Source: Vicugna vicugna (taxonomy: Eukaryota). From it: 64,000 bases of DNA. The notes under the pieces are model-generated. The model was not told the DNA's origin and did not search any database. It worked only from the letters and a program-made list of their open reading frames with translations. The translations under genes were made by a program, and so were the position numbers. Each line of letters begins with the position of its first letter. Positions within the stretch are counted from its first letter, which is position 1. This document shows positions 19,229 through 63,590 of this stretch, in pieces. The stretch is from assembly GCA_013265495.1 (NCBI GenBank), contig MU057658.1, forward strand, positions 10,949 through 74,948, read 5' to 3'.

Positions 19229-22200
19229 ATCTGCATCTTAAGCCTGTACTCTAGATCTGTGCTTCAGACTTGAATATTGAGCTTCTTAGGGAACTCCTAC
19301 TCTTAGCTCATATGTCAGATTCATCATGTCTAAAGCTGATTTCCTAATCTTTTTTCTTGCAGCGTCTTCACTTATTCAGTGGGATAATCATTCTTCCGGT
19401 CTTGAATACCCAAAGGCTTGGAATGGTTTTGATTTATATTTCTCTCACCACCCTCCACATATTGTCGGCTTCTGGAACTGTATGTTTTTGGTTTCAAGTG
19501 TCTCTTCAGATTGCTGATACTCTGATGAAGAGCTTTCATCCCTGATACATTAATTTTTCCTTCTGCTGAATTCTTGGATATTCTCTCCCCCCTTTTTCAG
19601 TCAACCTACAGTTTTGACACTCCAACATCTAGAGTCAAGTCAAAGACTTACGACAACCAGACCTGAGCCAGGTAGTCTTGACCTTTCATCATTTTGGACT
19701 TACCTTATATTTTCCAATAATTATGTAACTTAGCCTCCTAGGGTAACCTGTGCCTTATTAAAAACCAGGATTCACCAGCCTTTTCCTATCCAGTCCTCAG
19801 TTAAAACAGCTTAGAATTGCCCTGAGAACTAGTTGGAGCCCCATCCCCTTCATAGAGTCTTCCCTTTTTACTCCAAATACTTCTAGCTCCTCTTTGTATT
19901 CCTGCACTGTTTATGATAGGTAGCCTGTAATCTTGGCTTTGAGTACTGACTTGGTACCATTCCCAGGTGGTTTCCAATGTGTCTCCTCACTTACCTCGTA
20001 ACTGGAGAAGACTCCCTTGTTCAGCCTCCTTTATACCCCTCACCCTGCATAGCATCGGGCAATAGCAGGCATCCAGGCAGTGCTTATCTACTTTATTTAT
20101 TCGCAGGGGTGGTGGTGTGGATTATAGCCAATAACTGTTAATTCAGTGTTGCAATTAAAAATGAAAGCCAAGAAAAGCCATAAAACTTTATCTCCATGTT
20201 CATTTTAGCACTTTACCTCAACAGTTTTCTTAAGTTTGTGTTTACATTCACATAGCGTTCAGTGCTTGTACAGTTCCCTGAGGCAAGCAGGTGAAATGTC
20301 ATTATGTTTGACTTTCACCTTACAATTCATATTGGATATATTTGTGCAATGACAAAACCTTCTTTTATAAGTAAACAGCCGGAAGCCCAGAGAGACTAAG
20401 AGCCTAACCCAGGGTCACCTGGTTAGTGTTTGGCACAGGCCAGGACCGCAGTTCACATCTTCCAGCTGATCCTCTTCCAGTGCCTTTTCATTCCACTGCT
20501 GGGAAATGTAGCCCCATCGGCCAAATGGCCAAGTCACATTCCTGCCCCTTTACCTGCCATTGATGGCAGTGCTACAAAAAGTGGCAAAGGAAAGGTCAGA
20601 AATAGGAGTGATAAAAGACATGGAAGTGCTGGAAATGGATCCTCAACCTCCTCCTCCCTATTTGAGCGCCTCATAAGTGTCCCAATGTGACAATGCTTTT
20701 CATTGTTTATAACATAGTCTTTAAAATCAGACTGATCTTTTATATGACCTGTTTTTGTCCTGGTCCCTTTCCAGGTAGTAGTCACCATCATGGGCAGAAA
20801 ATGCCTGACTTTTTCTTTTTGTGAAGTAGGTGGGAGGGAAAGTGGGAGAGGGAGCGTGTTGAAATGAAGCCGAGCTTTTTACAGCTCTGTTGTTCTAGGA
20901 CCAGAGCAGTTCCACTCTTGCTTTCATCACCTCTCCACCTCCGAGTCCCAGCCACTCACTCTTGCCTGCTTCCCCACATGCCACGTCCTGGGGGAGGACA
21001 GAGTGGTGGCCAATGCCCCCTCCGCCCTCCGCTCTGGGAGGTGCAGGAGTCTGTTTAACTTTTGAGCTGTTTTGGTACTTGGGCTTTTCCAGCTTTTCTA
21101 GACATCTCCTTTCCAGCTCTGAGCAATTGGAGATGTAACTTAACCATACATGGGCTATACTAATGTATTCAGTGGCATTAATGTGATGTTGTCTTTCAGG
21201 TGTTCTGTGACTGGATAGGAGGTTTTTGACTCACAGGATGCTTCACATCCAATTCTAAAGGCCTACAGGATGCAGGTGTAATTCAAGTTCTTACATGTCT
21301 GTAAGGCAAACATGAACAATATTTGATAATATGACCATACGTTCATAGATTACGGTTAGTCCGCCGGCTCTGTATCTAGTAAAAGTTTAAATTCCAAATG
21401 CTTGAAGGAAATTTGCGGACCATGTCTTTTTGCCTGTAACTATTGCAAAAACTGAAATCACAACTCTACCACAAGCCACAGTGTTTCCCAATAGAGAAAG
21501 CCCTCTACATTTACAACCTCTAAGTAATGCGGTGTTTCTTTGGGTGAGATGAGGGATGCCAGAGTATTTTGTTGGGAAACTAGAGTGGCATGACAAGTAT
21601 TCTGGGACTGGTTACACTTGAATCTCTACTTCCTATATCCTGGACTGGTTACAGAGGCAATGTCACAACCGGTAACCAGCTTGTGAATGCAAGTGTAGCT
21701 AGGAAGACAACAGAGAAAATAGAAGGGATATAAAGTAATTGAGGGGCTTCATAGCAGTTCAAATGGTGACTTTGACACCACCAGATTCTCACGTGAACTT
21801 GGCAAGAATTTGTGAGAAGTGGTGGGTGTCATTGCAAGCAGGAGAGTCCTGCAGCTTTTGGGGTGAACAGGCAAAGGGGAGAGCAGATATGGTGGCTACC
21901 CAGGGGCTATTTATGTCCTGAATGTGAAAATGTCTGGTCCACTGTTCAATTTTGCAGCCACAACTTCACGTGACTCAGGGCATTATTTCTACCATAAAAT
22001 CATAAACAACCTCTGTTTCCCAAAGTGTTTGTTCTCAATCTGAGATGATTGTCCTGTGGTGGGAGGTAAGTGGGTGATGGGACCTATTACATCACCCCCT
22101 TTCACTAAAAGTCTATCTCGCTGCTTTTCACCCTACTCCTAGAGGTACTGTCATTCTGTTACACCTAGGCCTGTAAGACGGGCTTGCCTGAATCCTCACG

Positions 22201-23939
22201 TGATGAGGGACGGCTGTGTGCAATTTTAAAAAATTGCTTGGGTCATGAGGTCCTTTGTTCCCTCCATTGGAAATCACTATTCCAGAGCAAATAGTATGCA
22301 TCTATACAAACTATATTGTTTGTAAGGTGTCTTCAGAAGTTTTGTAGTAGGTTTAAATATTTGCTTGGTGATGACATCTTGATTGTTTGAAGGAGGCAAC
22401 CCTCACTAGGGACATTGAGTTCTTCCTGTCTGAGATTTCCTTTACTGGCAGTAGAGTGTTTGTAGGCAGATTTAGAAAGTTACCTGGTCTGAGAAGCCGA
22501 ATTTGCCCGCAGCTGGGAATTGGCAGAAGAGTCAGTTCTGGAAGGAAGGCTTTAGGATTATCTGGTAGCAGAGTTCTGGGATCCAAACCCTGGGAAACCT
22601 CAGCTGTTGTAGAATATGTTCTGTAACAATAGGCTATTGGATAATTTTAACACTTGTTATGGGATGTAGAGTTGGGGAAAGACTTAAAAGTGAAAGAGCC
22701 TTCAAAGAGAATCTCCAAATATTTTAAAGAAGGCAGTTCTCAGAATGAGAGCTTTTCTGGAAAAGAATAGTTCTCCACTTCACAGGGGAAGCAGGGAGCA
22801 GCTGTAACTGCACTTACAGTAACTTAAAAGGTAAACCTTACCCTCCCACTTAGCTGTTTCCTGGTGCACGTTCATCTCCCACATCTGTAGTTTTACACAT
22901 GATGTGTCATTTTCTGGTACTCCATTCTGCTTCTGAGTGAGAGACTGACACAAAGTCACATAGCAATTGAAAAATTGCGCAAAGGAATTTATTGTTAAAA
23001 ATGTAGACCTGTGGCAGGGTGCTGCATTTGCAAGTGACTTTCAGTACAGAGAACACTTAAAAGAATGCAGTGTTATTTCTTTTTTTATTCCCTTAAGCCT
23101 TTGAATAGTAGGTTTTCTTTGCAGAGTTTCTGGAGTACACCAGAACAAGCAGGAACTAAAAATAGCTTTAAGAAAGCACCAGTATAGACGTTGCTTATAC
23201 TATGGTATCTGTATTGAAGTTAATTCTTTAAAGCAGGAAGTTGTAACTCTCAATTTCTTAAGGAACTATAAACATTCTTGACTCTTATTGACATCTTTGT
23301 GGGGTGAAGCTGCTTTTGCTTCCATTCTGAGCATTGAAAGGCCTTCTAGGATACTTCTACCAGTCCTCAGTATTTTATTTTCCCTCTGTTGTGAACTTGT
23401 TATTAAACTTGAAGCAGATTTAAATATCATTAACTTGCTACATATGTAGATATTCAGTGTTACATAGTCAGAAAGTTTGTGTACATCACACGTATCTACA
23501 TAATTCCCCCCTTTCCAACTGTGTTCCTGATGAAAGGATGGTGGAAAATGGCAGTATGGGGATATGTCTTGCAGTACACAGTTTTTCCCATGTTCCCTCT
23601 ACCTGATCTGGATGTTCTTTCATCTTTCAGCTTCTAGACTCACTAGCTCTTTTTCTTAAGCCAGGTGTATCTCATCCCCCTGCGCACACACACATACGTA
23701 CACACACACACACACACATACATTCTGCCGTAGGGAGTAGCGTGCACCATCCCATTCTCCCACTCCAGCTCTGGCCCCACCCACTGGAGGCAGTGTCATG
23801 CACGAATTCATTTGTAAGTTCCTTTTTAAAACTCGAGTGGTTGGGAAATAGGACTGATATCCACACCTTTTAGGCAGGCCCTCAAGGACAACTTCTATGG
23901 TTAATGCCAGGTTATCTTAATATTTAAGTACTTGGGTTT

Positions 23940-24950
23940 CATGTCTTCCTCTACCACCTGTGTGACCCATGATTCCCACATTTCTGTCTCCCGCTAGACT
24001 TTTACTCTCCAACTCTGGACTCTTACAATCTTCTGCTGATTTGACATCTTCACTTGAACCTCTGATATCTTAAAACCAACATGTGTAAAAACTGAGCTCT
24101 TGGTCCTCCTATCCCCCAAACTGGTTCTTCCTGCAGCCTCCCCCATTCAGTTAGTGGAAACTTAATCCTTCCAGCTGCTTGGGTCATAAAACTTTGAGTT
24201 ATTCTGACTTTCACTGACATACCACATGAATTCTGTCAATAGATCTTGTTTAACACTGCCTTTAAAATATATCCAAAACCCAGCCACTTCTTACCATGGC
24301 TCCTGCCTCCACTGCTGCTTCCCTGCCCTGAGCCACTGCCCTCTCCTCCTGCACAGCCCTTCTCAGAGGCTTCCCACCTTTCATCTCTGATCCGTTTCGA
24401 CTATTCTCGCCCGGCAGTCAAGTGATCCTCGAAAACCTAAGTTAGATTCTGTCGTCCTTCTGCAGTGCCTCCCGATTTCACTCCGGGTAAAAGCCACAGT
24501 CCTTACGTCCTCCAAGGCCTTACAGGATCTGCACTGACCCTTCTCTGCAGCTCCAGCCATGCACCCATTCTGGAACATGCGAGGTGCAGGCTGACCTTGG
24601 TGATGGTTATTCCGCTCACCTGGGACTTCTCACCTCCTAGTATTTGTTCTAACCTCAGTCCTCAGTGTGGCCTACTCTGGTATTTAATACAACATCACCC
24701 ACATCCCATACCCTCAACTCTCTTTACCTTGCCCTTTTTTTCATTTTTCCATGGTTCCTCTTTCCTAACATGCCACCTCCTCTGCTGCTCTGTTGTGTGT
24801 ATTGTCATCTCCACCCCCCATCCCAGCTAGACTCCAATCAAGCTCCGTGAGGACAGGACTTTTGTTTTGTTTATTGATCTATTCCAAGTGCCTAGACTAG
24901 TCATGGGTACATAGTAGGCAGTCAAAAATTATTTGCTGAACAAATTAAAA
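23940..24950 (+). mobile_element. L2a fragment including 3' end
   Basis: Ends in an L2 tail: aagctccgtgaggacaggacttttg...gcctagactagtcatgggtacatagtaggcagtcaaaaattatttgctgaa. Confidence 0.75.
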
Positions 24951-25399
24951 GACTTTTTAAACTGAATCATTCTTTCAGGAACAGGTGAGGAAAGGAAGCT
25001 GCATGAAGGAAAATGGTACAGTAAATAATGATCTTTGCCTGTTGTTCTTTGTGTGATATATATATATGTTTTAGTCTTAATTTGGTATCCCAGTTTCTTA
25101 ATTTAATAGCTGAATTAAGGTGTAATTTACAGACCATAAAATTTACACATTATAATTGTACAAGTCAACCATTTTAGCTATTTCTTGAGTTGTGCATCTT
25201 TGTCCTCATAAAGTCCCCTTGTGTCCATCCATATGCAGTTCGCCCTCCCCTCAGTGGCACCATGATATTATCTTTTTTCTTTTTTGGCAATCACATCTCA
25301 AAAGGATAATTTACACAGCAGTAGTAATATAGCTTTGCACTTTTAGAAATGACACACTTAAATATGAAATTAGCGGTCATTGCTGAATGTAGGTAGCAG

Positions 25400-25620
25400 T
25401 ATCAGACATTGGTGAGAAGAATGGACCTGAGTGTCAGACTGGCTGCAGTCTTACCCAGCTCCACCAGTTACCAAGTTACCCAAATTATTTTCTGCCTCAA
25501 GCTCTTTATCTGTTATATGGGGGTAATAATAGCAGCTTACAGAGTTGTTGTGAGGATTAAGCAAACAGGGAAACAAAATTTAGTATAGTGGCCTGCTTAT
25601 GTTATTACCTAAGAAATAGC
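25400..25620 (+). mobile_element. MIR
   Basis: Core tctgcctcaagctctttatctgttatatgggggtaataatag...gttgttgtgaggattaa. Confidence 0.65.
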
Positions 25621-26005
25621 CTTGCAGGTAGAGAGCAAAATTCAAATCAGTTTCTAAAGTATATGTAAAATATGATTCAGTTCCTGCCTGGTTTGTAAAC
25701 ACTTATGCCTACTGCAGAATGAAAAGCAGGCTAATTTCCAACAGAAAAGATCATTTCTCAGCATTTCTTTCAAAGATAGCTGCAAAATCATTTTTACTAA
25801 ATTTTCTATGCCCAACTCTGACAAAAATTTGACACCAAGGACGTAATTATCTACATTTTTGTTAAATTGATGCTGACCATCAGGAAGTGTTCTCAATTAT
25901 ATTTTAGCCTTTATGTTGGGAAGTACTGTCAGACATCTTCTAAATTAATGGGGGGGCATTCATTGTAGCTCCTGTTGCCTGATAAGCCTGCACTAAATTA
26001 TCTTT

Positions 26006-26165
26006 TTTTAACTTTTAATTAAAGTAATAAATTAATTTTTTGCTGGGGGGTGGTAATTAGGTTTTTATTTATTTATTTTATTTTTAGAAGAAGTACTGGG
26101 GATTGAACCCAGGCCCTTGTGCATGCTAAGAACATGATCTTTCACTTGAGCTATACCCTCCCCCT
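26006..26165 (-). mobile_element. tRNA-derived SINE (Vic-1-like) with a 12-bp TSD
   Basis: gtactggggattgaacccagg...gagctataccctcccc; TSD taaattatcttt at 25994-26005 and 26166-26177. Confidence 0.88.
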
Positions 26166-26221
26166 TAAATTATCTTTAATAAGGTCTTTTTCTCTGTTTT
26201 GTTATTTTCTATTATGTACGG

Positions 26222-26347
26222 ATGCAGAAAGCAGGGTCATCAGAAGCCTCTCAATCCCAAAGATGATTATAGTGAAAAACATTGCACAGTGACAGTCAAT
26301 CCTTGGCATATGAAGAAAGATTGTAAAGTCCTGAATGAATTAAGAAG
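26222..26347 (+). pseudogene. KLHL2: Isolated KLHL2 (Mayven) exon-2 copy, 126 bp, acceptor AG>GG
   Basis: Translates CRKQGHQKPLNPKDDYSEKHCTVTVNPWHMKKDCKVLNELR|gtattg; recalled KLHL2 N-terminus is CTKQGHQKPLDSKDDNTEKHCPVTVNPWHMKKAFKVMNELR. Preceded by a pyrimidine tract ending tacgg. No further KLHL2 exon (BTB, CDVTIV...) seen. Confidence 0.9.
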
Positions 26348-26529
26348 GTATTGTTACATTAACATACATGTAAGCATGGCTCTCTTACCGTTATTTTTAC
26401 TTTATAATGAAGATACTCCCCACCCGTCAAGGTTGCTTTGTTTGATAGAGGGAATATCTAAAGCCTTTTCTGCAAGTTTTTTAAATAAGTAAGAGCAGGT
26501 AATTTATCAGATGTGTGAATTGTGTAATC

Positions 26530-26681
26530 TGCTCTATCTAGTATGGTAGCCACACCAGCCACATTATTGTGAATTGAGATGTTCTATAAGTGGAAAATAT
26601 ATAATAGATTTTCAAGACTTCGTACAACAAAAATAATGTAATATATTATTAATAAGTTTTAAAAGTGTTAATCAAATCACA
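26530..26681. mobile_element. hAT-Charlie (MER33-like) fragment running into a gap
   Basis: atggtagccac...tgaattgagatgttctataagtggaaaatat...gattttcaagact. Confidence 0.5.
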
Positions 26682-27592
26682 NNNNNNNNNNNNNNNNNNN
26701 NNNNNNNNNNNNNNNNNNNNNNNNNNNNNNNNNNNNNNNNNNNNNNNNNNNNNNNNNNNNNNNNNNNNNNNNNNNNNNNNNNNNNNNNNNNNNNNNNNNN
26801 NNNNNNNNNNNNNNNNNNNNNNNNNNNNNNNNNNNNNNNGTTTCAGGTGTACAGAGGCTCAACATTTTTATAAATTATATTCCATTTAAAGTCACCATAA
26901 AATAATGGTTATATTTCCCTGTGCTGTATGATACAGCCCTGTAACCTATCCATTTTATACGATACGNNNNNNNNNNNNNNNNNNNNNNNNNNNNNNNNNN
27001 NNNNNNNNNNNNNNNNNNNNNNNNNNNNNNNNNNNNNNNNNNNNNNNNNNNNNNNNNNNNNNNNNNNNNNNNNNNNNNNNNNNNNNNNNNNNNNNNNNNN
27101 NNNNNNNNNNNNNNNNNNNNNNNNNNNNNNNNNNNNNNNNNNNNNNNNNNNNNNNNNNNNNNNNNNNNNNNNNNNNNNNNNNNNNNNNNNNNNNNNNNNN
27201 NNNNNNNNNNNNNNNNNNNNNNNNNNNNNNNNNNNNNNNNNNNNNNNNNNNNNNNNNNNNNNNNNNNNNNNNNNNNNNNNNNNNNNNNNNNNNNNNNNNN
27301 NNNNNNNNNNNNNNNNNNNNNNNNNNNNNNNNNNNNNNNNNNNNNNNNNNNNNNNNNNNNNNNNNNNNNNNNNNNNNNNNNNNNNNNNNNNNNNNNNNNN
27401 NNNNNNNNNNNNNNNNNNNNNNNNNNNNNNNNNNNNNNNNNNNNNNNNNNNNNNNNNNNNNNNNNNNNNNNNNNNNNNNNNNNNNNNNNNNNNNNNNNNN
27501 NNNNNNNNNNNNNNNNNNNNNNNNNNNNNNNNNNNNNNNNNNNNNNNNNNNNNNNNNNNNNNNNNNNNNNNNNNNNNNNNNNNNNNNNNNNN
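26682..27592. other. Two assembly gaps (26682-26839, 26967-27592) around a 127-bp L1-like island. Other gaps: 5247-5431, 12629-12815, 30212-31147, 45743-45829, 46312-46755
   Basis: Runs of N in the sequence. Confidence 0.99.
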
Positions 27593-28295
27593 ATTTACAT
27601 ACTTTCCTTACAGTTTAGGACACAATTTGGCATAACCAGATAGAATTTAATAAGAGTAAATACAGTATTTTTTTAATGTCTATGCATTATGGATAGATAT
27701 GTAATTGATGAGTTTGTTCCCTATTTTTGTAGATGCAGAAGTTTTTATACCTTCACAGACATTTCAGTCTTGCAGAGAGAAAAATTTCTTTGCATTTTGC
27801 TGAACTTGTGCGGGTGTCTTTATCGGATTTGGTCCAGGCCTGCACAGGTGAATACACATCCAAACCTGAAACATTTGAATGTCTGCAAGATTTTAAGAGT
27901 CTAGAATGTCAGATCTGGACTGTGACTCTGGTAAATGACTTCAGTGACTGGACTCAAGAAAACTCCATTTGAGGGCAAAACCTTTCATAAGCCAAAAAGG
28001 CTTTGAAATTGTGGCAAAGCAAGAGACTTTTGTGCACCACTTATGGCCACAAGCCCATGAGGACAACCACAGGCCTTCTGGAGTGCCAAGGGACTTCCAT
28101 GTGAGGAGTCCAGCACTCACAGGAATCCAACAAGTCCCTGCCAGCCAGAGCACCTTCATTGCTACTGTGCTCTTTTGAGTAAATGTCTTTTCATCAGGTT
28201 CAAATTGGTTTGTTTTTATTTTTTTGCATGAAAAATAACAACTCCTTGTTCCCTGGTGAAAGTAAAAGCCTAACATTTTCTGATTTTTTTGACAG

Positions 28296-28360
28296 AGGAA
28301 ACATGAGCCTGTGAATCTAACCTCATCTGTGATGGTCTCCAGCTGGGAGCAACCAGATCA
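28296..28360 (+). pseudogene. ANO6: ANO6 pseudo-exon 4 (65 bp, 1-bp deletion)
   Basis: gacag|AGGAAA...GAATCTAACCTCATCTGTGATGGTCTCCAGCTGGGAGCAACCAGATCA|gt translates RK..ESNLICDGLQLGATRS; recalled ANO6 is RKRQAYESNLICHGLQLEATRS. Confidence 0.88.
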
Positions 28361-29235: not shown

Positions 29236-29522
29236 GTTTTGGATGACAAGCTTGTATTTGCAAAAGTACACACCCTATGGGAGGTGCTCTGTACATACGC
29301 TGAGATACTGCACATAATATTGCCTCTGAAGCCCAATGATCTGAACACCCGGTCCTCAGCCTTTGATAACTTCAGCTGTTTGATGGAAGTCCTCCAAGTG
29401 GATGAAAGTATCAACAACCGGAACAAGAGTTTTTCATTGCCCTATTTGCGAAGAGCTCCGTCAATGACTTTTATATTCAGGATAGAGATACATTCTTCAA
29501 TCCAGCCACCAGAAGCCACATT
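29236..29522 (+). pseudogene. ANO6: ANO6 pseudo-exon 5 (287 bp, 1-bp deletion at ~29413-29417)
   Basis: tatag|VLDDKLVFAKVHTLWEVLCTYAEILHIILPLKPNDLNTRSSAF...VDESI, then in the shifted frame PEQEFFIALFAKSSVNDFYIQDRDTFFNPATRSHI|gtaag. Confidence 0.95.
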
Positions 29523-29746: not shown

Positions 29747-29862
29747 GTTTACTTCATCTTTTCTCAGATCAAGTATCAAGTAAGGGACAGTGTTAAAAAA
29801 AATTTGGGATTGACAGGTTTGTGAGCTCCAGGATCTGCAAGGCAGCTTTCCCTCCCCATGGT
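29747..29862 (+). pseudogene. ANO6: ANO6 pseudo-exon 6 (116 bp, +2 in an A8 run)
   Basis: tttag|VYFIFSQIKYQVRDSVKK/FGIDRFVSSRICKAAFPPHG|gtaagt; recalled ANO6 is VYFILSRVKYQV...FGINRLVNSGIYKAAFPLHD. Confidence 0.92.
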
Positions 29863-32067: not shown

Positions 32068-32182
32068 TGCAACTTCAGCCTCCTTCAGAGGACCTCAGCT
32101 GCCCCAGCGAACAGGGCCTTCGGCACAGGGAATGGGCTCTTCCTCGAAGCATAGACAAGAAGCAGCCCTTAGGTCTCATCAG
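32068..32182 (+). pseudogene. ANO6: ANO6 pseudo-exon 7 (115 bp, 1-bp deletion)
   Basis: cccag|CNFSL/SEDLSCPSEQGLRHREWALPRSIDKKQPLGLIR|gt; recalled ANO6 is SEDPSCPNERYLLYREWAHPRSIYKKQPLDLIR. Confidence 0.9.
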
Positions 32183-36929: not shown

Positions 36930-37060
36930 GGACGGAGGGTATAACTCAGTGGTAGAGTGCATGTCTAGCATGCATGAGGTCCTGGGTTCAATCCCCAATG
37001 CCTCCATTTAAAAAACAAATAAATAAACCTAATTATGACCCCCCAAAAAACAAAGAAAAA
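36930..37060 (+). mobile_element. tRNA-derived SINE (Vic-1-like) with TSD
   Basis: gagggtataactcagtggtagagtgcatg...ggtcctgggttcaatcccc; TSD agaaattaa(t/c)atga at 36915 and 37061. Confidence 0.9.
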
Positions 37061-37133: not shown

Positions 37134-37266
37134 GAAATTCTACAGGAAGAAGGTCTGAATCTTCTTTGCTTGGCTGGGCTATTACACTCAGATGCTCCTC
37201 CTGGCAGCAGTCGTGGGGGAGACTTGCTTTCTGTGTGGATATTTTAATCAAAATAACTACCTGGGG
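37134..37266 (+). pseudogene. ANO6: ANO6 pseudo-exon 8 (TM1; TGA at 37156-37158 and a 2-bp deletion)
   Basis: tgcag|KFYRKKV*IFFAWLGYYTQMLLLAAVVGETCFLCGYFNQNN/TW|gtaac. Confidence 0.93.
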
Positions 37267-37294
37267 GTAACTTCTCTTTATTCCTTGTTACTGT

Positions 37295-40200
37295 GCTTAC
37301 TTAACTTAGAATGACATTCTCCAGGAGCAACCATGTTGTTGCAAATGGCCCTATATTGTCAGTGTTTATGGCCGAGGAATATTCCATTGTATAAATATAC
37401 CACTTCTTTAGCCAGTCATCAGTTGATGGACATTTAGGCTGTCTCCATGACTTGGCTACTGTAAATAGTGCTGCTATGAACATTGGGGTGCAGGTGTCAT
37501 TCTGATGTAGGGTCCCTTCAGGATATATGCCCAGGAGCAGTATTCCTGGGTCATATGGTAAGTCTATTCCTAGATATTTGAGGGAACTCAATACTGTTTT
37601 CCACAGTGGCAGCACCAAACAGCATTCCCACCAGAAGTGTAGGAGTTTCCCCTTTCTCCACAGCCTCTCTAGCATTTGTCATTTGTGGATTTTTGAATGA
37701 TGGCCATTCTGACTGGTGTGAGGTGATACCTCATTGTAGTTTTGATTTGCATTTCTCTGATAATTAGTGACATTGAGCATTTTTTCATGTGCCCATTGAT
37801 CATTTGTATGTCTTTCTTGGAGAATTGCTGGTTTAGGTCTTCTGCCCATGTTTGGATTGGGCTATTTGATTGTTTCTTATTAAGTCATTTGAGCTGCTTA
37901 TATATCCTGGAGATCAAGCCTTTGTCAGTTTCATTTGCAAAAATGTTCTCCCATTCTGAAGGTTGTCTTTTTTTTTACTTATGGTGTCCTTTGCTGTGCA
38001 GAAACTTGTAAGTTTCATTAGGTCCCATTTGTTTATTCTTGCTTTTATTTCTTCTGCTTGGGTAGACTGCCCTAGGGGAACATTTCTGAGATGTATGTCA
38101 GATATTTTGCCTGTATTTTCTTCTAGATGGTTTATTTTATCTTGTCTTATGTTTATCTTGCTGAAGAGACTGTCTTTATTCCATTGTATATTCTTGCCTC
38201 CTTTGTCGAAGATTAGTTGACCAAAAGTTTGCGGGTTCATTTCTGGGCTCTCTATTCTGTTCCATTGGTCTATATGTCTGTTTTTGTACCAATACCATGC
38301 TGTCTTGATGACTGTAACTCTATAGTATTGTCTGAAGTCTGGGAGAGTTATTCCTCCAGGCTCTTTCTTTTTTTCTTCAGTAATACCCTGGAAATTCTAT
38401 GTCTTTGATGGTTTCATATAAATTTTATTGTGATTTGTTCTAGTTCTATGAAATATGTCTGGGGTAATTTTACAGGGATTGCATTAAATCTGTAGACTGC
38501 CTTGGGCAGTGTGACCATTATAACAATATTGATTCTTACAATCCAAGAGCATGGGATACCTTTCCATTTTTTAAAGTCTTCTTTAATTTCCTTCACCAAT
38601 GGTTTATAGTTTTCTGTATATAATCCTTTCACCTCTGTGGTTAGATTTATTCCTAGATATTTTATTACTTTGGGTGCTATTTTAAAGTGGATTTTTTCTT
38701 TACTTTCTTTTTCTGTTGATTCATCATTAGTGTAAAGAAATGCAACTGATTTTTGAACATTAATCTTGTAACCTGCTACCTTGCTAAATTCTTCAATCAG
38801 CTCTAGTAGTTTTGGTGTGGACCTTTCAGGGTTTTCTATATATAGTGTCGTGACATCTGCATGTAGTGACACTTTTACCTCTTCTTTTCCGATTTAGAAC
38901 ACCTTTTACTTCTCTTACTTGCCTGATTGCTGTGGCCAGGATTTCCAAGTCTATGTTGAATAGGAGTGGTGATAGTGGGCATCCTTGTCTTGTCCCAGAA
39001 TTTAGTGAGAAGCTTTTGAGGTTTTCACCGTTGAGTGCTATGCTGGCTGTAGGTTTGTCATATATAGCTTTCATGATGTTGAGTTATGTTCCCTCAATAC
39101 CCACTTTGGTGAGAATATTTATCATAAATGGGTGTTGAATTGTATCAAAAGCTTTTCTGCATCTATTGAGATGATCATGTGATTTTAGTCCTTTCTCTTG
39201 TTGATGTGAAGTATTACATTGATTGATTTGCATATGTTGAACCACCTTTGTGTCCCTGAGATGAACCCCATTTGAGCATAATGTATAATCTTTTTTATGT
39301 GCTGTAGGATTCTATTTGCTAGTATTTTGGTAAGGACATTTTTGCATCTGTGTTCATCAGTGACATTGGTCTGTAATTCTCTTTTTTGGTGGTGTCTTTG
39401 CCTGGTTTTTGTATCAGGGTGATTGTGGCTTCATAGAATGAGTTTAGGAATATTCCTTCTTTTCAATCTTCTGGAAGAGTTTGAGAAGGAGTGGTATGAG
39501 TACTTCTTTGTATGTATGGTAGAATTCCCTGGTGAATCTGTCCAGTTCTGGACTTTTATTTGTAGGGAGTTTATTTTTTTATTGTTAATTCGATTTCATT
39601 CCTAGTGATCAGTTTGTTCAAGTGGTCAGTTTCTTCTTGATTCAGTCTTAGTGGACTGTATGTTTCCAGAAACTTGTCCATCTCCTAAAACGTGTCCATC
39701 TCCTCTAGGTTATCCCTTTTTTTATGTAGTTTTTCATGATATTCTATTCTCATATTCTATATTTCTATGTTATTTTTTGTAATTTCTCCATTTTCCTTTC
39801 TTATTTTGCAAATTTGTGCTCTCTCTTTTTTCTTCTTTGTGAGTTTGGCCAGAGGTTTCTCAATTTTATTTACTTTTTCAAAAAATTGCTTTTGGTTTGA
39901 TTGATTATTTTCTCTATTTCTTTTAATCTCTATTTTATTTATTTCCTCCCTGATCTTAATTATTTCCTTCCTTCTGCTGACTTTTGGGTGTTTTTGTTCT
40001 TCTGTTTCTAGTTCTTTTAACTGGTGGGTTAGATTGTTTATTTGATATTGTTCTTCTTTTGTGAGGAAGGCCTGTATCACCCTAATCTTTCCTCTTAGCA
40101 CTGCTTTTGCTTTGTCACATAAGTTTTGTGTGGTTGTTTTCATTTTCATTTGTCTTAAGGTATTCCTTAATTTCAACTTTGATTTCATCATTGACCCATT

Positions 40201-42925
40201 TTTTTTTTAATAGCATGTTGTTTAATCTCTAAGTTTCCTTTTTTTTCTCCTTTGTTTCTCTGAAGTTGATTTCTAGTTTCAATGACATTGTAGTCAGTAA
40301 GGATGCTTGAGATAATTTCTATCTTCTTGAAATTGTTGAGGCTTCTTTTGTGACCATGTACATGATGAATCCTAGAAAATGTTCCATGCACACTTGAAAA
40401 GAATGTATATCCTATTTTGGGGGGTTGTAATGCTCTGAAAATATCCACTAAATCTAATTTTTCTATTGTATCATTTAATTTCTCTGTTGCCTTATTTATA
40501 TTTTGTGTGTAACATCTGTCTAGTGATGTTAATGTGGTGTTAAAATTTCCGACAATGATTGTATTCCCATCAATTTCCCCCTTTTTCTCTGTTAGTAGTT
40601 GTTTAATGTACTTAGGTGCTCATGTTGGATGCATATATATTAATGATTGTAATATTCTCATCTTGTATTGCTCCTTTAATCATTATAAAATGTCTTTATT
40701 TATCTTTATGGCCCTTGTTTTAAAGTCTATTTTGTCTGAAATCAGAACTGATACACCAGCTTTTTTGGCATTTCCATTTGCATGGAATATCTTTTTCTGT
40801 CCATTCACTCTCAATCTATATGTGTCCTTCTCCCTAAAGTGTGTCTCTTGAATGCAGTTTATTGAAGTTTCTTGCTTTATTATCCAGTCTGCCACTCTGT
40901 CTTTTGACTGGAGCATTTAGTCCATTATCATTTAGAGTAATTAATGATAAATGAGTGTTTATTGCTATTTTGAACTTATATTTGCAGTTGATTTGGTATT
41001 TCTTCTTTGTTCCTTTCTTCTTCCTTTTGTGGTATGGTAATTTTCCTTTGTGTTATCTTGGATTGTATTTAGTTTTTGTTACTCACTTGTAAGTTTTTGG
41101 CTTGTGGTTACACTTTTTTGTAAGTCTGTTAACCAAATATTCTAACTGTGTGTACTAAAGAGATAGTAATTTAATCTCAATCCCATCCTACCGAGAACAA
41201 AAAATTTAAGAAAAAAGAAGAAAGAAAAAATACTCTATATTTTCTTGCTTCCCCTTCCCACTCAATGATTTAGATGTCTTCTTTTACAATTTCATGTTTA
41301 TTCTATTTGTAATTCATGGTAGTTATCACCATTCCAGTTATGAGTTCTCATTTCTGTAGCATCCTGCTTCTTTTCTATTTAGAGTAGACCTTTTAATATT
41401 TCTTTAGCATGGGTTTAGTGTTGCTAAAGTCTTTTAGTTTTTGCTTCTCTGTGAAATTCATTACCTCTCCTTCTATTCTAAAGGATAGCCTTGCTGTAGA
41501 AAGTATCCTAGGCTGCATCTGTTTTTTCATTCAGGACTTTTAATATATCTTCCACTCCCTTCTGGCCTGTAGTGTTTCTATAGAGAAATCAGCTGAGAGC
41601 CTTCTCTTTTAACTCATTCTTTGTTTTTCTCGTGCTGCCTTTAGGATCATTTCTTTATCCTTCAGTCTGGCCATCTTGATTATGATATGTCTTGGTGTGG
41701 ATCTCTTTAGGCTCTTCCTGTTTGGGAACCTCTGAGCCTCCTGTACTTGGGTGTCTGATTTCTTCTTTAGGTTTGGGAAGTTTTCAGTCATGATTACTTT
41801 AAATACCTTTTCCATCACTTTTGTTCTTTCTTCCCCTTCTGGAACCCTTATTATGCATAGATTGGCATGCTTTATATTATCCCATAGGTTCCATATATTG
41901 TTTTCATTGTTTTTTATTTTTTTCTCTCAGCTGTTCTGATTGTGTGCTTTCTGTTGTCCTGTCTTCTAGGTCACTGATTCATTCCTCTGCATTATCTAGC
42001 CTGCTTTGTACAGCCTTTAGGTGAGATCTCATTTCAGCCAATGAATTTACCAATTCTACTTGGCTCTTCTTTTTAGCTTCTATTTTGTTTTTGACATATT
42101 TTATGTCTCTAAACACTGTCTCTTTTAATTCCTTCAGTAATTAGATCACTTCTTTTTTGAAATCTTGATCTAATAGGCCATTAATATCTATTTCATTGAT
42201 CGTTCTTTCAGGGGATTTCTCTTTCTCTTTTAATTGGGAATACTTCCTCTACTTCTTCAACTGCTCATATCTCTCTGGCACTGTGGCTTAAGGAGTATCA
42301 GTTATCTATTGTGGTCCTTAAAGGGGTTTATTTCTTTATCTATCTAAAGCCTATGCTGGAATAAAACTTAAAAATGAGAGAGAGAGAATTCTAAAACAAT
42401 GAAGGAAAAGAAGATTTGAAAAGAGTGAATAATCAATAATAGAATAGCAAGTTGAAGCAGAATAGGAATCGAGTTGAGATGTCTTTTTAAAACCTTAATA
42501 AAAAGAAGAAAATCAAAACACAATATTTAAAACCTGTGAATAATCAATAACAGATCAAATCCAAGAGAATTAAAAATGAAATGAGAATTGTAAATGTATA
42601 GAACTGTTTGAAAAGTAAAGATTAAAAAGCTAATAGAAAATAAATCAGGTATAAAAAGATTTAAAAAACAAAGATGTGTTCTCCTAGAGACTGAACGCTC
42701 TTAATGGTTTTATTGAGAGGTCTTTGTGTCTTCGCCCTGTTTCATGAACTAGGCTTGCTCTGTTGGCCCCCTCGTCTGTGCTGCTCACAGTGTCCATTGG
42801 CAAGAACATTGCGCCCCTCCAACACTGGGTCAGGTGCTGCTCTCCTTCACGGTGGGTGGGTGGGTCACACCCCGTCCAGATGCCACAGTCAGTGCTGTGT
42901 CAGTTGCTCCATAGGTGGGCTCAGC
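37295..42925 (-). mobile_element. Near-full-length decayed lineage-specific L1 (part of 5'UTR, ORF1, ORF2), 3' terminus missing
   Basis: ORF1 piece ENFPNL...TPRHIIIKM (41609-41818); endonuclease CIQETH...KIFHANG...KAGV (40683-40916); [17 protein letters not shown] (38826-39074) with FADD decayed to HADV; C-terminal CTPMFIAALFT. Many stops and frameshifts. Confidence 0.95.
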
Positions 42926-42929
42926 TTCA

Positions 42930-49629: not shown

Positions 49630-49860
49630 ATATTTTAATTGAATTATAGTCAGTTACAATGTGTCAATTTCTGATGCACAGCACAATGTTCCAGTCATTC
49701 ATGTACACGTATATTTGGATGAATTCCTTTTCATATTCTTTTTATTAAAGTTTATTACAAGATATTAAATATTGTTCCCTGTGCTATACAGAAGAAATTT
49801 AGTTTTCTTAGCTATTTTTATATATATTAGTTCATATTTGCAAATCTCAGTATTTGATGG
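49630..49860 (-). mobile_element. Short L1 3' end
   Basis: ttttaattgaattatagtcagttacaatgtgtcaatttctg...ccctgtgctatacagaagaaa. Confidence 0.75.
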
Positions 49861-52158: not shown

Positions 52159-52767
52159 TGATACAGGAAAATGTGGGGGAGAGGATGGCCGTATCCCAGG
52201 TCTTATTTGGGCCCCTGAGATGCACCTCGCCAAGTGTGGGTCTTTGTGTTGCACAGGAAAGAATCCTAGAGAGCCACAGTTCAGTAAATGTAGATTAATT
52301 CAGAGAGATATATACTCCACAGACAGAGTGGGCTGTTTCAGAAGGCAAGAGAAAGGCCATGAGGCGTGGGGGTTGGGTGCTCCAGTTTAAAGTAAAAGTA
52401 GACACACACTCCACAGACAGAGTGTAGGCCGTTTCCCTCAGCAGAGAGAGTAGCCACGAGGTGGGGGGTTGTTAGTTTTTATGCACTCAGTATCTTCATA
52501 TGCTAATAAGTGGGAGGAATATTCCAACCGCTTTGGGGAAGGTGTTGGGATTCCCAGAAATTCGGGCAACACTCACCCTCTGACCTTTTATGGTCAGCCT
52601 TGAACCTGTCCTGGCAACTGTGGGCTTGCCATTTGGAATCCTGCTGTATTTCGGAGAGTGTGTATTGAAGCTCAAGATCTACTGGGAGTTGACTTTTCCA
52701 CCGTCTTGGTGTTAATGGCTGTGCTATCCTTTTAATGGCTGTGCCAGTCCCCCTTGACCCTGTCTCA
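52159..52767 (-). mobile_element. Solo ERV1-type LTR (~610 bp) inserted in an L2
   Basis: TG...CA termini (tgatacagg...cctgtctca) with near-TSD tgta/tgaa, an internal actccacagacagagtg repeat, and L2-like flanks. Confidence 0.65.
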
Positions 52768-54739
52768 TGAAGGAGCTATGAACTGATTGTGCAATTGCAG
52801 AGCAGGGGACAGAGTGGAAAGAACTTCATAAGTAGAAGGTAGGAGGCAGTGTTGGCAGTAGAATTCTCAAGTCAATTATAAAGTAAGGGTCTTCTGTTTG
52901 CTGGGGGTAAATGGTGTCACATTAGGGAGCTGTGAGCCTTGGGGACATCAGTGAGTGGGTGGCTCACTGTGTATACTGTGTTGCTCCTTAGGCGGCCTGA
53001 GGACAGTTGGCTTATAGGTGACCCATTCACTCAGGCAGGAGTCTCTTTGGGGATTTTCTGCACTTGAGGCTAACATGGGTCACATGGGGAACAGGACCGG
53101 CCAGTCACAGCTTGGTCCACAGTCACCTAGTTCCCTCACGGCTTTCATCCCATGGATGCGTCACCTCCCCATCGATGGGGACAAGGGCACAAGTGGTGGG
53201 GCAGCTTCTCAGTGGTGGAGGCATTGCTCTCCAGACCCAACACTCAACAGCATGGACCCCTGGTGTTGGCCACAGTCTTGGCTAGATGAGTCTGTTGGGT
53301 AGCTGAGCTCATGAGACGTGGGTGCCATGCTTCAATTCTCACCAAGAGCTCTACTTTGGAAGGTTCTGGTCAGACAGCCACAAATACTCCCTAGCCCATA
53401 AACAAAGAACAGTCCCTTTCACTCGGGGAAGGGCACACAGAAGGAGAACGGATCATCCCGAGAGCAGGAGAGGCCAAATCAGTCCTGCCATCAGGGGTCT
53501 GACAGACGAGCCAGCTCAGTTCCTCTTACTAGTTGTTTACTTGGAGGATCTGGGGTATTTGGGTGACCTGCAAGTGTCAGGAAATAGTACACGAGGGCTT
53601 TGTAGATTTTCTGGTCCGGTGTTAACTCACCCCATTGTAGCTATCATGCAAGGAAACAAAACTTGGTGTACAACAGGCCATGGCCTCTCCTCCCTGGTGG
53701 AGCCAGGAGATTACAATGTTAAGTACGACTGCGGGGGCATCATTTCTATGTTGAGAGTCCAGATGGCCTTACATATCTCTCATGCTGGATGTCTAAGTTG
53801 CAGAAGGAAACTAGATTCCATACAGCTCTCCAGCCAAGGAGGAGACCAGAAGTGGCCTCCCCCACCACCTGTGAGCTCTTTGCCTCCACTGACAGCAGCA
53901 TCTATAGCAAAAATCTGGGCTGCCACCTGCATTTCTGTGTAAATATTCGAGTAGCCACAGCAATGGCCATGTGAGGGATGGTGTGCCCAAGGAAGCGCTG
54001 TGTGGGAGGAGGGAGGAGTGCCGGGGTCAGACACCGGGCCGGCAGGCAGGCAGTGAGGACATCTTTGCAGTGCAGGCGCCATGGAACTGAGCCAAAGGGA
54101 GGCGAGTTTTGGAGCAGGGAACCTGGGCAGTGCCGTGTTGTTCGTAAGAAGATCCTGGGCTCCGGATCCACGAAGTCATTGGCTTGATTCCTGACCCCAA
54201 CCCTCATCTTGGGCAAATGTTTGAAACTTTCTGTGCCTCTGTTTCTTGGTGTCCCAAATGGGGACAATAGTAGCAATTACCTCTGAGAGTCAGGAGGGCC
54301 TTTATAGATGTCATTTCATTACGCTCACAGCAGCCCACGAGCACGGTGCTAGGTCCCCCATTTTACATGTGGCAGACGGGTAACGTTTTAATCAGTAATC
54401 ACGCAGCTAAGAATGGTCAGAACCACCATTTGAATATGATCCCTGTGTCCAGATAACTTCTATTCTCACTCAGTATTACTGGAAAACTAGTAAGGTCAGA
54501 ACAAACACTGCTGGGAAGTGGGTGCTTGAAACATGTTTGTCATCTTCGCCATTGGAGAGTGTTGAGTTCACGTTCCTCACAGCCCGTCCGAGGCCCCCTG
54601 CGTCTCCGGCTGCCCCTGGTGGGGTCTGCAGGGCTCTGGGCAGCTTCTCCTTGTTCTCTACCCCCAAGGCTCTCTGCTCTCTGCAGGTTGATTCTCAACC
54701 CTGACTGCTTAGTAGAGCTAATGTCTAAAAACAAAAAAT

Positions 54740-54870
54740 GGTGTGACGGGTACGACTCAGTGGTAGAGCACGTGCTTAGCATGCAAGAGGTCCTGGGTTC
54801 AATTCCCAGTACTTCCATTAAAATAAATAAAGCTAACTACCCCCCACAAAAAGGAAAGAAGTATTTAAAA
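54740..54870 (+). mobile_element. tRNA-derived SINE inserted in a MER5-like element
   Basis: gactcagtggtagagcacgtgcttagcatgcaagaggtcctgggttcaattcccagtac plus A-rich tail. Confidence 0.85.
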
Positions 54871-56255
54871 AACAATAAACAGTACAAAGGCCCCACTCCA
54901 GGCTGGGACACACTATGTTTTAAAGGCTCCAAGATGCTTCCCATGTGCAGAAGGGTGAGAGCTAGAGCTCTTGAGCTCTTCTCATGAGCTTGTCCACTCA
55001 CACACATTAGCCTCTTGAAACAGGAAAATTACTTGGCTCAGCCCAGAACTTTCTCCCGATTTCTAGACTTTTATTTGCCTACTAGACATCTCTCCTGGAG
55101 CCCACAGGCACCCAGCCAGAACTGAATCAGTTGTCTCCTCTCATGACTTGCCCCTCTTCCTGCCCTTCTTTTTTTTTTAACATTTTTTATTCATTTATAA
55201 TCATTTTACAAGGTTGTGTCAAATTCCAAGCCAGAAAGCTGGCCGGCATCTTTGACCTCTTCCTGCCCTTCCATCACACCTGTGGCCAATCCGTCCACCT
55301 GCTGAAATGTTTTCTTCTCTCTCCTCCTGGCGGGGTTCAAGCAGGCCTTCACATGAACCTGCCAATAAGTCTCCCTGCCTCTATCTTGTCTCTTTCTAGA
55401 TCACTTTGCATGTCACCTCTACGTTGGAGGCACACAGAGTCCTTTGTGATGTGCACCTGTGACCTCTCCACCTGGTTGCCTCACCTGCCTCCCACACCCT
55501 GTGCTCACTTCTAGATTATTTGCAGTTCCTGGAAGTGACCTGGCTCTCTTTGGCCTCCCTCCTTTGCATGTGCAGCTCCCCAGGGAGAAATGGCCTTAAC
55601 ATTATACCTTCCCCTGATCACTTCTAGGGCATCTCAGAACTCACCACAGTGGTTCCCTCCTCTGGGAGAGCCTTGGCTACAGTTCCAGCTCTCTGCCCCG
55701 AGCACCCTCTGCTGACTGTTATCCAAGCCCTCTTAACACGCTTCCTCAGCCATCATTCCACGATGACTCCTGTGCACCTAGGAGCTCCCGGAAGCAGGGA
55801 CTGTGTCTTTTTTCTCTTTATTCTCAGAGCATGGTAGAGACTCAGGTATAATGGTGGAGGGAACAGTGGTTATTCTGATATTTCTCTGGAGTTGGGGCCT
55901 AGGGGTAACAGTGTGGTTGGAAGAAGGGCTTAGGGGATTTACCCTGAAGCCACATTTTCAATTAACATTTCATGTTTTTGTCTAAAATTTGAAGTTATGA
56001 GTCTTAAAACAGAATGGCGATTTCTAAAAATTAGTTTACCAAATATTGAGGAAAATGGCAGTTTTCCATATTTAAGAATATTATTTTAATTTTGTGTGAC
56101 TGGGGTGGTGGAAAATAGAAATGCAGTGGTTACTAAAGCATTCTAATCCCCTTCCCCACCCTCAGGTCCTTTGGACAGAAGAGACAGAGGGATGTGATGA
56201 GAAGGCTTGGAGGGTGGACCGTGCAGTGCTTTTAAATTGTGACAGTTACTTCTGC

Positions 56256-56359
56256 TTTTTTAACTTTCTTTTTTAATGGAGGTAATGGGGCTTGAACCCA
56301 GGACCTTGTACATGCTTAGCGTGTGCTCTAGCACTGAGCTATACCCACCCTTCCCCCCG
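56256..56359 (-). mobile_element. tRNA-derived SINE
   Basis: atggaggtaatggggcttgaacccaggacc...gcactgagctatacccaccc. Confidence 0.85.
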
Positions 56360-56685
56360 ATATTTGTGTTCTTAGTGGGCATAATGTGCTGGTAGCAGGT
56401 TCTTTAGCATCAGACACAGTCACCTGCCTCTGACCATCACGTTAATACCTTTCCCCTGAGCTAGAGAGCTAGTCTGTTTCCAAAAGTTCAATAAATTATC
56501 TACATTTTCTTTTTTCTTAAAAAAAGGCATTAACTCATGTTTCTCTTTAGTATCGCCTATAAATAAAATGTGATTTTATTAACCATTTAGTGTTAAGTGT
56601 TAAGGGTAATAAATATTAAGTACAGATTTCTGAAGCATCAGTCATCACTGAAGATGCACATTCTGCTGTTCTCTCTCTCTGTTAG

Positions 56686-56822
56686 TCACCTTACTTCTGG
56701 AGTTCTGGAAGCGGTGCCAGGCAGAACTTGAGTACAGATGGGACACGGTTGAGCAGGAAGAACAAGTCCGGCCAGAATAGGAGGCGCGGTGTCCCCACGT
56801 GGAGATAGATGAGATTACCCAG
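56686..56822 (+). pseudogene. ANO6: ANO6 pseudo-exon 11 (TAG at 56778-56780, 6-bp deletion, donor GT>GA)
   Basis: gttag|[44 protein letters not shown]|gaaaag. Confidence 0.93.
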
Positions 56823-56869: not shown

Positions 56870-57050
56870 CTTGTCAGCCTTGGCTGCATGTTGGAATCAC
56901 CAGGGGAACTTAAAAAATGTTGGTGCCTGGATTCCATCACTGCAAACTCTGATGGTACTTAGTGGCCTGGGGTGCATTCTGGCATAGGGAAGTTTATAAA
57001 GCTCCTCTAGTTATTCTAATGTACAGCCAAGGTGAAGCAGCACTGCCTGG
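56870..57050. mobile_element. MER5A-like hAT MITE
   Basis: ttggctgcatgttggaatcaccagggg...gttattctaatgtacagccaaggtgaag. Confidence 0.65.
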
Positions 57051-59076: not shown

Positions 59077-59152
59077 GAAGCAGAGCGTGTTCCGTTTACC
59101 ACCTGGGGAAAGTTTATACATATAACCCTTTGTGCAAGTGCACTTTTTCTGG
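59077..59152 (+). pseudogene. ANO6: ANO6 pseudo-exon 12 (76 bp, 2-bp deletion)
   Basis: attag|EAERVPFTTWGKFIHITLCASA/FFW|gtaaga; recalled ANO6 is EEERIPFTAWGKCIRITLCASAVFFW. Confidence 0.9.
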
Positions 59153-63363: not shown

Positions 63364-63590
63364 GTCCTGATGATCATTGCTTCAGTTATTGGGATCACTG
63401 TCTACGGACTTTCAGTGTTCATTGTATTTTCTGCAAAACTTCCCAAGAACCTGAATGGAAGAGACCCAATCCAGAAGTACCTGACTGTGCAGGTGGGCCA
63501 CGCCCATCACTGCTTCCCTCATCAGTTTTATCATCATCGTGACCCTGAACGCCATATATGAGAAAGTGGCAATCATGATGACTGACTCTG
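63364..63590 (+). pseudogene. ANO6: ANO6 pseudo-exon 13 (227 bp, 1-bp insertion at ~63496)
   Basis: gtcag|VLMIIASVIGITVYGLSVFIVFSAKLPKNLNGRDPIQKYLTVQV/ATPITASLISFIIIVTLNAIYEKVAIMMTDS|gtaagc. Confidence 0.94.

What the first reader, a model, noticed from the sequence alone, without database searches (positions are those of the whole stretch)
19230..63590. KLHL2 exon 2 placed in cis, same strand, ~1.95 kb upstream of ANO6 exon 4: a chimeric segmental-duplication mosaic
Seen: a KLHL2 exon with intronic flanks (26222-26347) followed by ANO6 exon 4 at 28296; ANO6 exons 1-3 and KLHL2 exon 3 onward were not found. Known: the two genes are unlinked in human (chr4 and chr12). Inference: these are DNA-level duplicons from different loci joined together, as in pericentromeric, subtelomeric or Y-type duplication hubs. 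This could mark an undescribed camelid duplicon family.
Basis: partly seen in the sequence, partly recalled or inferred. Interest (0 to 1): 0.72.

Follow-up and report, generated by a model that had tools for sequence, protein, structure and literature searches.

The report
Ancient camelid KLHL2-ANO6 patchwork pseudogene
This is one decayed copy of an old patchwork of DNA, a promoter-like island, a piece of the KLHL2 gene and much of the ANO6 gene, that was stitched together once in an ancestor of camels and alpacas and then copied many times; it is real but most likely makes no working protein.

Summary
A KLHL2 exon 2 with intron flanks (26222-26347) lies on the same strand 1.95 kb before ANO6 exon 4, followed by exons 5-8 and 11-13. 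Both are dead here: the KLHL2 acceptor is GG, and all 8 ANO6 exons carry indels (7 frameshifts). The join is not a scaffolding artefact: 10 of 32 non-parent database gene models, from wild camel, dromedary and alpaca, link the same KLHL2 exon to ANO6 exons. They share six derived KLHL2 residues, and 17 ANO6 copies form one group apart from the parent (100/99). So the fusion arose once, before camels and alpacas split, and was amplified across many contigs. The unit starts further left than reported (at least 11.4 kb) and includes a CpG island (16551-17250) of unidentified source, used as first exon in the models, so copies may be transcribed as spliced chimeras. No reads were laid on this copy's gap, and transcription is not shown. 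The scan had already noted this ANO6 duplicate family on other DNA; the KLHL2 and CpG front end is the addition. Verdict: a real camelid mosaic segmental duplication of a known kind, not found in print by my searches.

The parts
11414..11524 (+). Upstream piece of the repeated unit, used as an exon in a wild-camel model (LOC116661546); source gene unidentified
   Evidence: 73% over 37 aa to P0093, E 8e-11; no Pfam family
15868..16180 (+). Further upstream pieces used as exons in wild-camel and dromedary models
   Evidence: 15868-16005 matches P0093; from 16094 matches P0179
16551..17250 (+). CpG island with NRF1-like (16720) and ETS-like (16751) motifs; supplies first exons of the chimeric models; GT donor after 16972; not recognisable as KLHL2 exon 1 or ANO6 exon 1
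   Evidence: 200-bp windows with GC 0.67-0.73, CpG o/e 0.66-0.92 against about 0.2 in the KLHL2 and ANO6 blocks (motif names recalled); matches to P0093, P0008, P0099, P0179, P0102; donor
17668..17790 (+). GC-rich piece joined to ANO6 exon 4 in an early-branching copy (P0012)
   Evidence: 68% over 41 aa, E 3e-11
24250..26221 (+). KLHL2 intron 1 (minimum extent shown; 19230-24250 not verified)
   Evidence: two anchors, scores 69 and 42, 0 of 200 shuffles each
26222..26347 (+). Decayed KLHL2 exon 2; acceptor AG changed to GG in this copy; second donor after 26369 is the one most models use
26348..26681 (+). Start of KLHL2 intron 2 (match to about 26519), then sequence up to the gap
   Evidence: P0103, P0109 read-through matches
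26682..27592 (.). Two assembly gaps (158 and 626 N) around a 127-nt island; the junction most likely lies in or beside them
   Evidence: island has no match elsewhere in the window
27733..27847 (+). Cryptic exon with AG acceptor and GT donor, placed between KLHL2 exon and ANO6 exon 4 in wild-camel LOC116661728 models
28296..28360 (+). ANO6 exon 4, 1-nt deletion; models extend it to a donor after 28490
29236..29522 (+). ANO6 exon 5, 1-nt deletion shared with dromedary LOC105104373 and a Bactrian model; 75 of 93 residues identical to parent
29747..29862 (+). ANO6 exon 6, +2 nt
32068..32182 (+). ANO6 exon 7, -1 nt
37134..37266 (+). ANO6 exon 8, stop codon and -2 nt
37285..41926 (-). Decayed antisense LINE-1 in the intron after exon 8 (minimum extent); exons 9-10 not found in the window
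   Evidence: RVT_1 E 3e-5 (below cut-off) and L1 ORF1 domain E 8e-21
56686..56822 (+). ANO6 exon 11, -6 nt, stop codon, donor GT changed to GA
59077..59152 (+). ANO6 exon 12, -2 nt
63364..63590 (+). ANO6 exon 13, +1 nt; other copies continue with later ANO6 exons beyond the window

Best explanation
The window holds one decayed copy of an old camelid mosaic segmental duplication. Shown: an unprocessed internal piece of KLHL2 (intron 1, exon 2, start of intron 2) sits between a CpG island and an unprocessed ANO6 block that starts just before exon 4; the same order occurs at other loci in three camelid species; the copies descend from one ancestor that had already lost coding constraint. Inferred: the pieces were joined by DNA-level duplicative transposition in a stem camelid, the joined unit then spread as a block to many chromosomes in a burst before and after the camel-alpaca split, and the captured CpG island drives spliced, variable chimeric transcripts from some copies that are mostly non-coding or short-ORF noise. 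In this copy the KLHL2 acceptor is dead and every ANO6 exon is broken.
For: Same join in 10 of 32 non-parent models tabulated: Camelus ferus LOC116661728 and LOC116661546 on 29.3 and 27.7 Mb contigs, C. dromedarius LOC105104373, Vicugna pacos models on 9.6 and 78.5 Mb contigs. Six KLHL2 positions are changed in the window and in all 5 other copy types compared, in a peptide identical in 36 of 72 records. 17 of 17 ANO6 exon-5 copies form one side of a branch, 100/99, with a star-like group of 15 and a dromedary-alpaca subgroup at 95/94. Parent exon 5 is identical in three camelids (95 of 95) while copies are 76-86% to it. 8 of 8 exons have indels, 7 frameshifting, 2 stops, 1 dead donor. ANO6-like copies lie on 6 different dromedary contigs besides the parent's, at least 5 alpaca and 3 wild-camel contigs. 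Both sides of the gap share a derived state with the same dromedary locus (KLHL2 N16Y; exon-5 deletion).
Against: All cross-species evidence is from automatic protein models; I saw no DNA of any other copy and no RNA support behind the models. No reads or contigs were laid on this copy's gap. The camelid parent KLHL2 was not retrieved. The tree rests on 95 columns, its bootstrap had not settled, 16 of 22 inner branches are open, and fast-evolving copies can group by long branches. 22 of 32 models lack the KLHL2 peptide (they may start later, skip it or lack it). The source of the CpG island is unknown, so the order of joining is not known.
Confidence: 0.85

Rival explanations
1. Assembly artefact: the two halves were joined wrongly across the 26682-27592 gaps. 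Strong form: the fusion does not exist. Weak form: the fusion exists, but this scaffold joins halves of two different copies.
For: 784 N in the junction; short-read-style gaps; multi-copy families invite mis-joins; none of 20 public runs that hold the KLHL2 side holds half of its words, best 0.36; the window mixes residues typical of different subfamilies.
Against: The join is inside single gene models from three species. Left and right of the gap each share a derived state with the same dromedary locus.
Confidence: 0.05
2. A young, functional chimeric protein family: captured promoter, KLHL2 exon 2 in its own frame, a new frame through extended ANO6 exon 4, and ANO6 exon 5 in its own frame give a protein of about 300 residues that is kept by selection in some copies.
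For: Alpaca (341-353 aa) and dromedary (307 aa) models use the same two shifted donors and stay open from the KLHL2 exon into exon 5; the same three stretches are stop-free in the window; several near-identical alpaca models exist; they retain part of the Anoct_dimer domain.
Against: Annotation picks open frames, so openness is partly selected for; frames and exon paths differ among copies; the KLHL2 part lies before the BTB domain and the ANO6 part lacks most of the channel; copies diverge far faster than the parent; in this copy the acceptor is dead and exon 5 is frameshifted.
Confidence: 0.07
3. RNA-mediated origin: a chimeric or trans-spliced transcript, or an L1 transduction, was reverse-transcribed and inserted.
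For: L1 sequence lies within the unit; an earlier scan note reports an exon-L1 chimera in this genome (not tested).
Against: Introns with splice sites are kept on both genes over more than 39 kb, which reverse transcription of spliced RNA does not give.
Confidence: 0.03

Closest known systems
Primate mosaic segmental duplications built of duplicons, with core duplicons (PMC3530683; 8 passages read)
   Same: Block made of ancestral subunits from different loci, many interspersed copies, exons and introns kept, partial genes.
   Different: Here a camelid lineage; copies are old (76-86% protein identity to the parent) and lie on many contigs rather than mainly one chromosome; core status and expression not measured.
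HYDIN2 (PMC5345166; abstract read)
   Same: Incomplete duplication of internal exons of a large gene, placed behind an unrelated promoter, with varied splicing and altered frames under relaxed selection.
   Different: HYDIN2 is one young copy with transcripts proven by RACE and long reads; this is an old multi-copy family, heavily disabled, with an extra KLHL2 piece, and transcription rests on automatic models.
Pseudogene-rich repetitive blocks of alpaca chromosomes 11, 17, 36 (PMC13751797; abstract, section 14 and 12 passages read)
   Same: Dispersed multi-copy gene fragments in camelid repeat-rich DNA.
   Different: Those carry NEK10, ATF5, FMN2, ABHD17A-like pieces and are reported absent from camel assemblies; this family is in both Camelus and Vicugna; ANO6 and KLHL do not occur in that paper's text or its one readable supplement.
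Automatic RefSeq/GenBank loci LOC116661728, LOC116661546, LOC105104373 and alpaca XP_0728131-0728135 series
   Same: Paralogous copies of this very unit, with the same KLHL2-ANO6 join.
   Different: Listed as 'uncharacterized' or 'anoctamin-6-like' without recognising the KLHL2 part or the family; none is identical to the window copy.

Membership tests
Unprocessed (duplicated) pseudogene | Introns and splice sites of the parent retained | tested here: met
   8 ANO6 exons with AG acceptors, 7 with GT donors; KLHL2 intron anchors
Unprocessed (duplicated) pseudogene | Disabling lesions | tested here: met
   7 frameshifts, 2 stops, dead donor, dead KLHL2 acceptor
Unprocessed (duplicated) pseudogene | Intact parent elsewhere: ANO6 | tested here: met
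   P0029, P0056, P0057 identical over exon 5 in three camelids; these are database records, not necessarily this window's genome
Unprocessed (duplicated) pseudogene | Intact parent elsewhere: KLHL2 in camelids | tested here: inconclusive
   No camelid full-length KLHL2 among hits (clusters show one representative); KLHL2 appears in a dromedary EST gene list
Mosaic segmental duplication | Subunits from two or more unlinked loci | tested here: met
   ANO6 and KLHL2 on contigs of 117.6 and 156.3 Mb in right whale and 169.5 and 68.2 Mb in Reeves's muntjac; both on one 1.1 Gb contig in Indian muntjac
Mosaic segmental duplication | Several interspersed copies of the joined block | tested here: met
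   10 of 32 models carry the join; loci on different contigs in three species
Mosaic segmental duplication | At least 1 kb at 90% DNA identity or more between copies (recalled working definition) | not testable with these tools
   No DNA of other copies obtained; protein identity to the window 78-92% over exon 5
Mosaic segmental duplication | Pericentromeric or subtelomeric position | not testable with these tools
   No genome held; records give contig length only
Core duplicon (primate sense) | Most abundant subunit among a chromosome's duplication blocks | not testable with these tools
   Needs a whole-genome repeat graph
Core duplicon (primate sense) | Associated with an expressed new gene family | tested here: inconclusive
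   Spliced chimeric models in three species; no RNA laid; no conserved frame across all copies
HYDIN2-type fusion gene | Transcripts start at a promoter outside the duplicated gene and cross the breakpoint | tested here: inconclusive
   CpG island intact-looking and first exon in models; no 5' end or read evidence
HYDIN2-type fusion gene | Relaxed selection on the duplicated exons | tested here: met
   Parent 95 of 95 identical across camelids, copies 76-86%
Y-chromosome amplicon | Copies confined to the male-specific Y | tested here: not met
   Copies on many contigs of 27-121 Mb; alpaca Y paper reports no transposed sequences, with a stated validation limit. A Y copy among many is not excluded.

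The most novel reading that the evidence does not exclude
The CpG-island/KLHL2/ANO6 cassette is a camelid counterpart of a primate core duplicon: a transcribed chimeric unit that has seeded duplications for longer than the camel-alpaca split, and whose recently expanded alpaca subfamily (several near-identical 341-aa models) is a new, translated chimeric gene family.
Probability: 0.1. Interest if true: 0.7.

Novelty: new member of a known kind. Interest (0 to 1): 0.36.

Why it matters
If the best reading holds, camelids carry an old, interspersed, primate-like mosaic duplication family, whereas such architecture is usually discussed for apes (PMC3530683 passage: two- to threefold enrichment over non-primate mammals). 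It gives a datable non-primate case of promoter capture plus exon shuffling. Practically, it explains many 'anoctamin-6-like' and 'uncharacterized' camelid gene models and warns that read mapping, variant calls and expression values for ANO6 and KLHL2 in camels and alpacas can be confounded. It does not by itself reveal a new mechanism or a new working gene.

Tried and rejected
No whole genome is held for the window, so copy number and positions in this genome were not measured. Two scans of metagenome contigs for DNA of related loci found none (0 of 178 and 0 of 74 candidate stretches confirmed). Public runs: 20 of 24 rows hold part of 22000-26681; 14 DNA or unlabelled rows from three coded organisms at 0.27-0.36, and 6 RNA or guessed-RNA rows at 0.05-0.19; none was laid, so they are no evidence of expression or tissue, and this copy's gap stays unbridged. 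A rough comparison of word share (about 96-97% identity) with protein divergence was dropped because it compares different regions and unknown copies. Source of the CpG island and of 11414-11524: 51 open frames against Pfam gave 3 weak hits below cut-off; two Atlas searches gave hits under 0.9 or none; PDB sequence searches nothing relevant; KLHL2 exon 1, its 5' leader frames and exon 1b were not found (exon 1b 195 of 200 shuffles as good); ANO6 exon 1 not found. Rfam over 1-18000 and 19300-64000 gave only two tRNA-like hits. The 127-nt island in the gap looks like a LINE end from memory but matched nothing in the window. Literature: searches returned 0 papers; one returned 1 (read); one returned 18 listings, none on camelids by title; 53, 64, 73, 74 listings (top 5-20 seen of 222, 8, 346, 1264) showed no paper on this family; PMC6598621 (3 passages) and PMC2873428 (6 passages) do not describe it. 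Subscription papers, figures, and supplements not held as text were not seen and could mention it.
Full report
Observation. The window has seven N gaps, two of them (26682-26839, 26967-27592) between the two genes. The frame at 26223-26345 is KLHL2 exon 2: its best named relatives are primate KLHL2 records at 78%, and it differs at 9 of 41 positions from the peptide shared by 36 of 72 records. It is a genomic copy: read-through ORFs from other mammals keep matching into the downstream intron to about 26519, and pieces of KLHL2 models that come from intron 1 score best at about 24250-24421 and 25670-25730, with 0 of 200 shuffled peptides reaching either score. ANO6 exon 4 begins at 28296; exons 5-8 and 11-13 follow on the same strand to 63590. 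ANO6 exons 1-3 and 9-10, KLHL2 exon 1 and KLHL2 after exon 2 were not found. Exon numbering is recalled.

State of this copy. All 8 ANO6 exons differ in length from the parent (-1, -1, +2, -1, -2, -6, -2, +1; expected lengths from a whale record plus split-codon bases that I set by eye), two hold stops, the exon-11 donor is GA and the KLHL2 acceptor is GG. A decayed antisense L1 lies after exon 8. This copy cannot make ANO6 or KLHL2.

Is the join real? The exon-5 search returned camelid 'anoctamin-6-like' and 'uncharacterized' models ahead of all true ANO6 proteins; the KLHL2-exon search returned 3 of 3 hits from wild camel, two with an anoctamin domain. Of 32 non-parent models tabulated (31 named camelid, one unnamed), 10 carry the KLHL2 peptide followed by ANO6-derived sequence: wild camel LOC116661728 and LOC116661546 on contigs of 29.3 and 27.7 Mb, dromedary LOC105104373 and alpaca models under seven accessions on contigs including 9.6 and 78.5 Mb. 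A gene model is built along one scaffold, so these imply the same order and strand at other loci in other assemblies (inference from how annotation works). None equals the window (best 93% on the KLHL2 exon, 92% on exon 5). The two sides of this window's gap each share a derived state with the same dromedary locus: N16Y in KLHL2 and the 1-nt deletion in exon 5. No reads were laid on the gap, so a join between two sister copies is not excluded.

One origin, older than the genera. Six KLHL2 positions are changed in the window and in all five other copy types compared. In a tree of 29 exon-5 peptides (95 columns; isoforms and near-duplicates of one locus left out), the 17 copies form one side of a branch at 100/99; 15 of them form a star-like group, and a dromedary copy pairs with two alpaca copies at 95/94 (bootstrap not settled, 16 of 22 inner branches open). 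The parent is identical in three camelids while copies are 76-86% to it. Camels and South American camelids have been separate for more than 11 million years (PMC13751797 abstract); the stem plus tip lengths are roughly two to four times the half-path between the dromedary and alpaca sister copies, so the duplication is considerably older than that split (rough inference). No non-camelid record with the derived residues appeared among 90 and 81 hits, within the sensitivity of those searches. ANO6-like copies lie on six dromedary contigs besides the parent's, at least five alpaca and three wild-camel contigs; these are minimum counts from protein models only.

A third component. Most of these lie in or next to a CpG island at 16551-17250 whose CpG o/e stays at 0.66-0.92 while the KLHL2 and ANO6 blocks are near 0.2. 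It carries NRF1-like and ETS-like motifs (names recalled). It does not match KLHL2 or ANO6 first exons, and Pfam, Atlas and PDB searches did not identify it. I read it as a promoter captured from a third locus (inference); a much-diverged or non-coding KLHL2 first exon is not excluded.

Transcription. The models skip exons, read ANO6 exons out of frame and use cryptic exons (27733, 28043, 52770) and shifted donors (after 26369 and 28490) that recur in different species. Homology-driven prediction would not favour such paths, so RNA alignments probably lie behind them (inference, about 70%); I did not see that evidence. Alpaca and dromedary models keep an open frame from the KLHL2 exon into exon 5, and those three stretches are stop-free in the window too, but frames differ among other copies and annotation selects for open frames.

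Mechanism, steps marked. Shown: genomic pieces, common ancestry, loss of constraint, many loci, independent decay. Inferred: DNA-level duplicative transposition joined island, KLHL2 piece and ANO6 block; block duplication spread the unit; the island still drives chimeric RNA in some copies. Unknown: breakpoint sequence, order of joining (whether early-branching copies P0012, P0013, P0077 hold the KLHL2 piece), chromosomal positions.

Comparison. It works like primate mosaic segmental duplications (PMC3530683, passages) and, in layout, like HYDIN2 (PMC5345166, abstract). It meets the tests for an unprocessed pseudogene and for a multi-locus mosaic; the DNA-identity, position and core-duplicon criteria could not be tested. 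Alpaca pseudogene-rich blocks are in print (PMC13751797, section 14) but with other genes. Literature searches found no description of this family. Earlier notes of this scan report about 44 ANO6 duplicates in this genome and an ANO6-POFUT2 patchwork in more than fifty copies in another; I confirmed multi-copy status independently but not those counts or the POFUT2, TRAPPC9 and PADI3 parts.

Verdict. Real, old, multi-copy camelid mosaic duplication; this copy is dead. New member of a known kind; interest 0.36. Probability that a subfamily is a translated chimeric gene family on a core-duplicon-like unit: about 0.1.

Noticed in passing
window 10231-11210 and 13729-14686: Direct repeat of about 1 kb at 75% identity, an old local duplication bracketing the unidentified 11414-11524 piece; parts look like decayed LINE ends (recalled).
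   Followed up: no
window 14693-14978 and 15114-15395: Inverted repeat of 286 nt at 81% identity with a short spacer, just left of the CpG island; could mark a rearrangement edge.
   Followed up: no
window 17178-17654: GC-rich stretch that matches its own reverse complement at 69% over 500 nt, with further internal repeats to 17984.
   Followed up: no
window 11292-11850 (-): Proline- and arginine-rich open frames of 107 and 127 codons on the minus strand; no Pfam family.
   Followed up: partly
window 26087-26160 (-), 36935-37006 (+), 54748-54817: tRNA-Ala-like calls by ARAGORN and Rfam; they belong to a set of about six mutually similar short repeats, so are probably tRNA-derived SINEs, not tRNA genes.
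   Followed up: partly
window 1-10200: Left flank has higher CpG o/e (0.35) than the duplicated blocks (0.18-0.23); it may lie outside the unit and mark this copy's insertion site.
   Followed up: no
window 37267-56685: ANO6 exons 9-10 are missing where a large L1 and two gaps lie; deletion or gap not told apart.
   Followed up: partly
window 26270, 28311, 29317, 29413 region: The window shares some derived residues with a dromedary/Bactrian subfamily and others with an alpaca subfamily, a hint of gene conversion or recurrent mutation among copies.
   Followed up: partly
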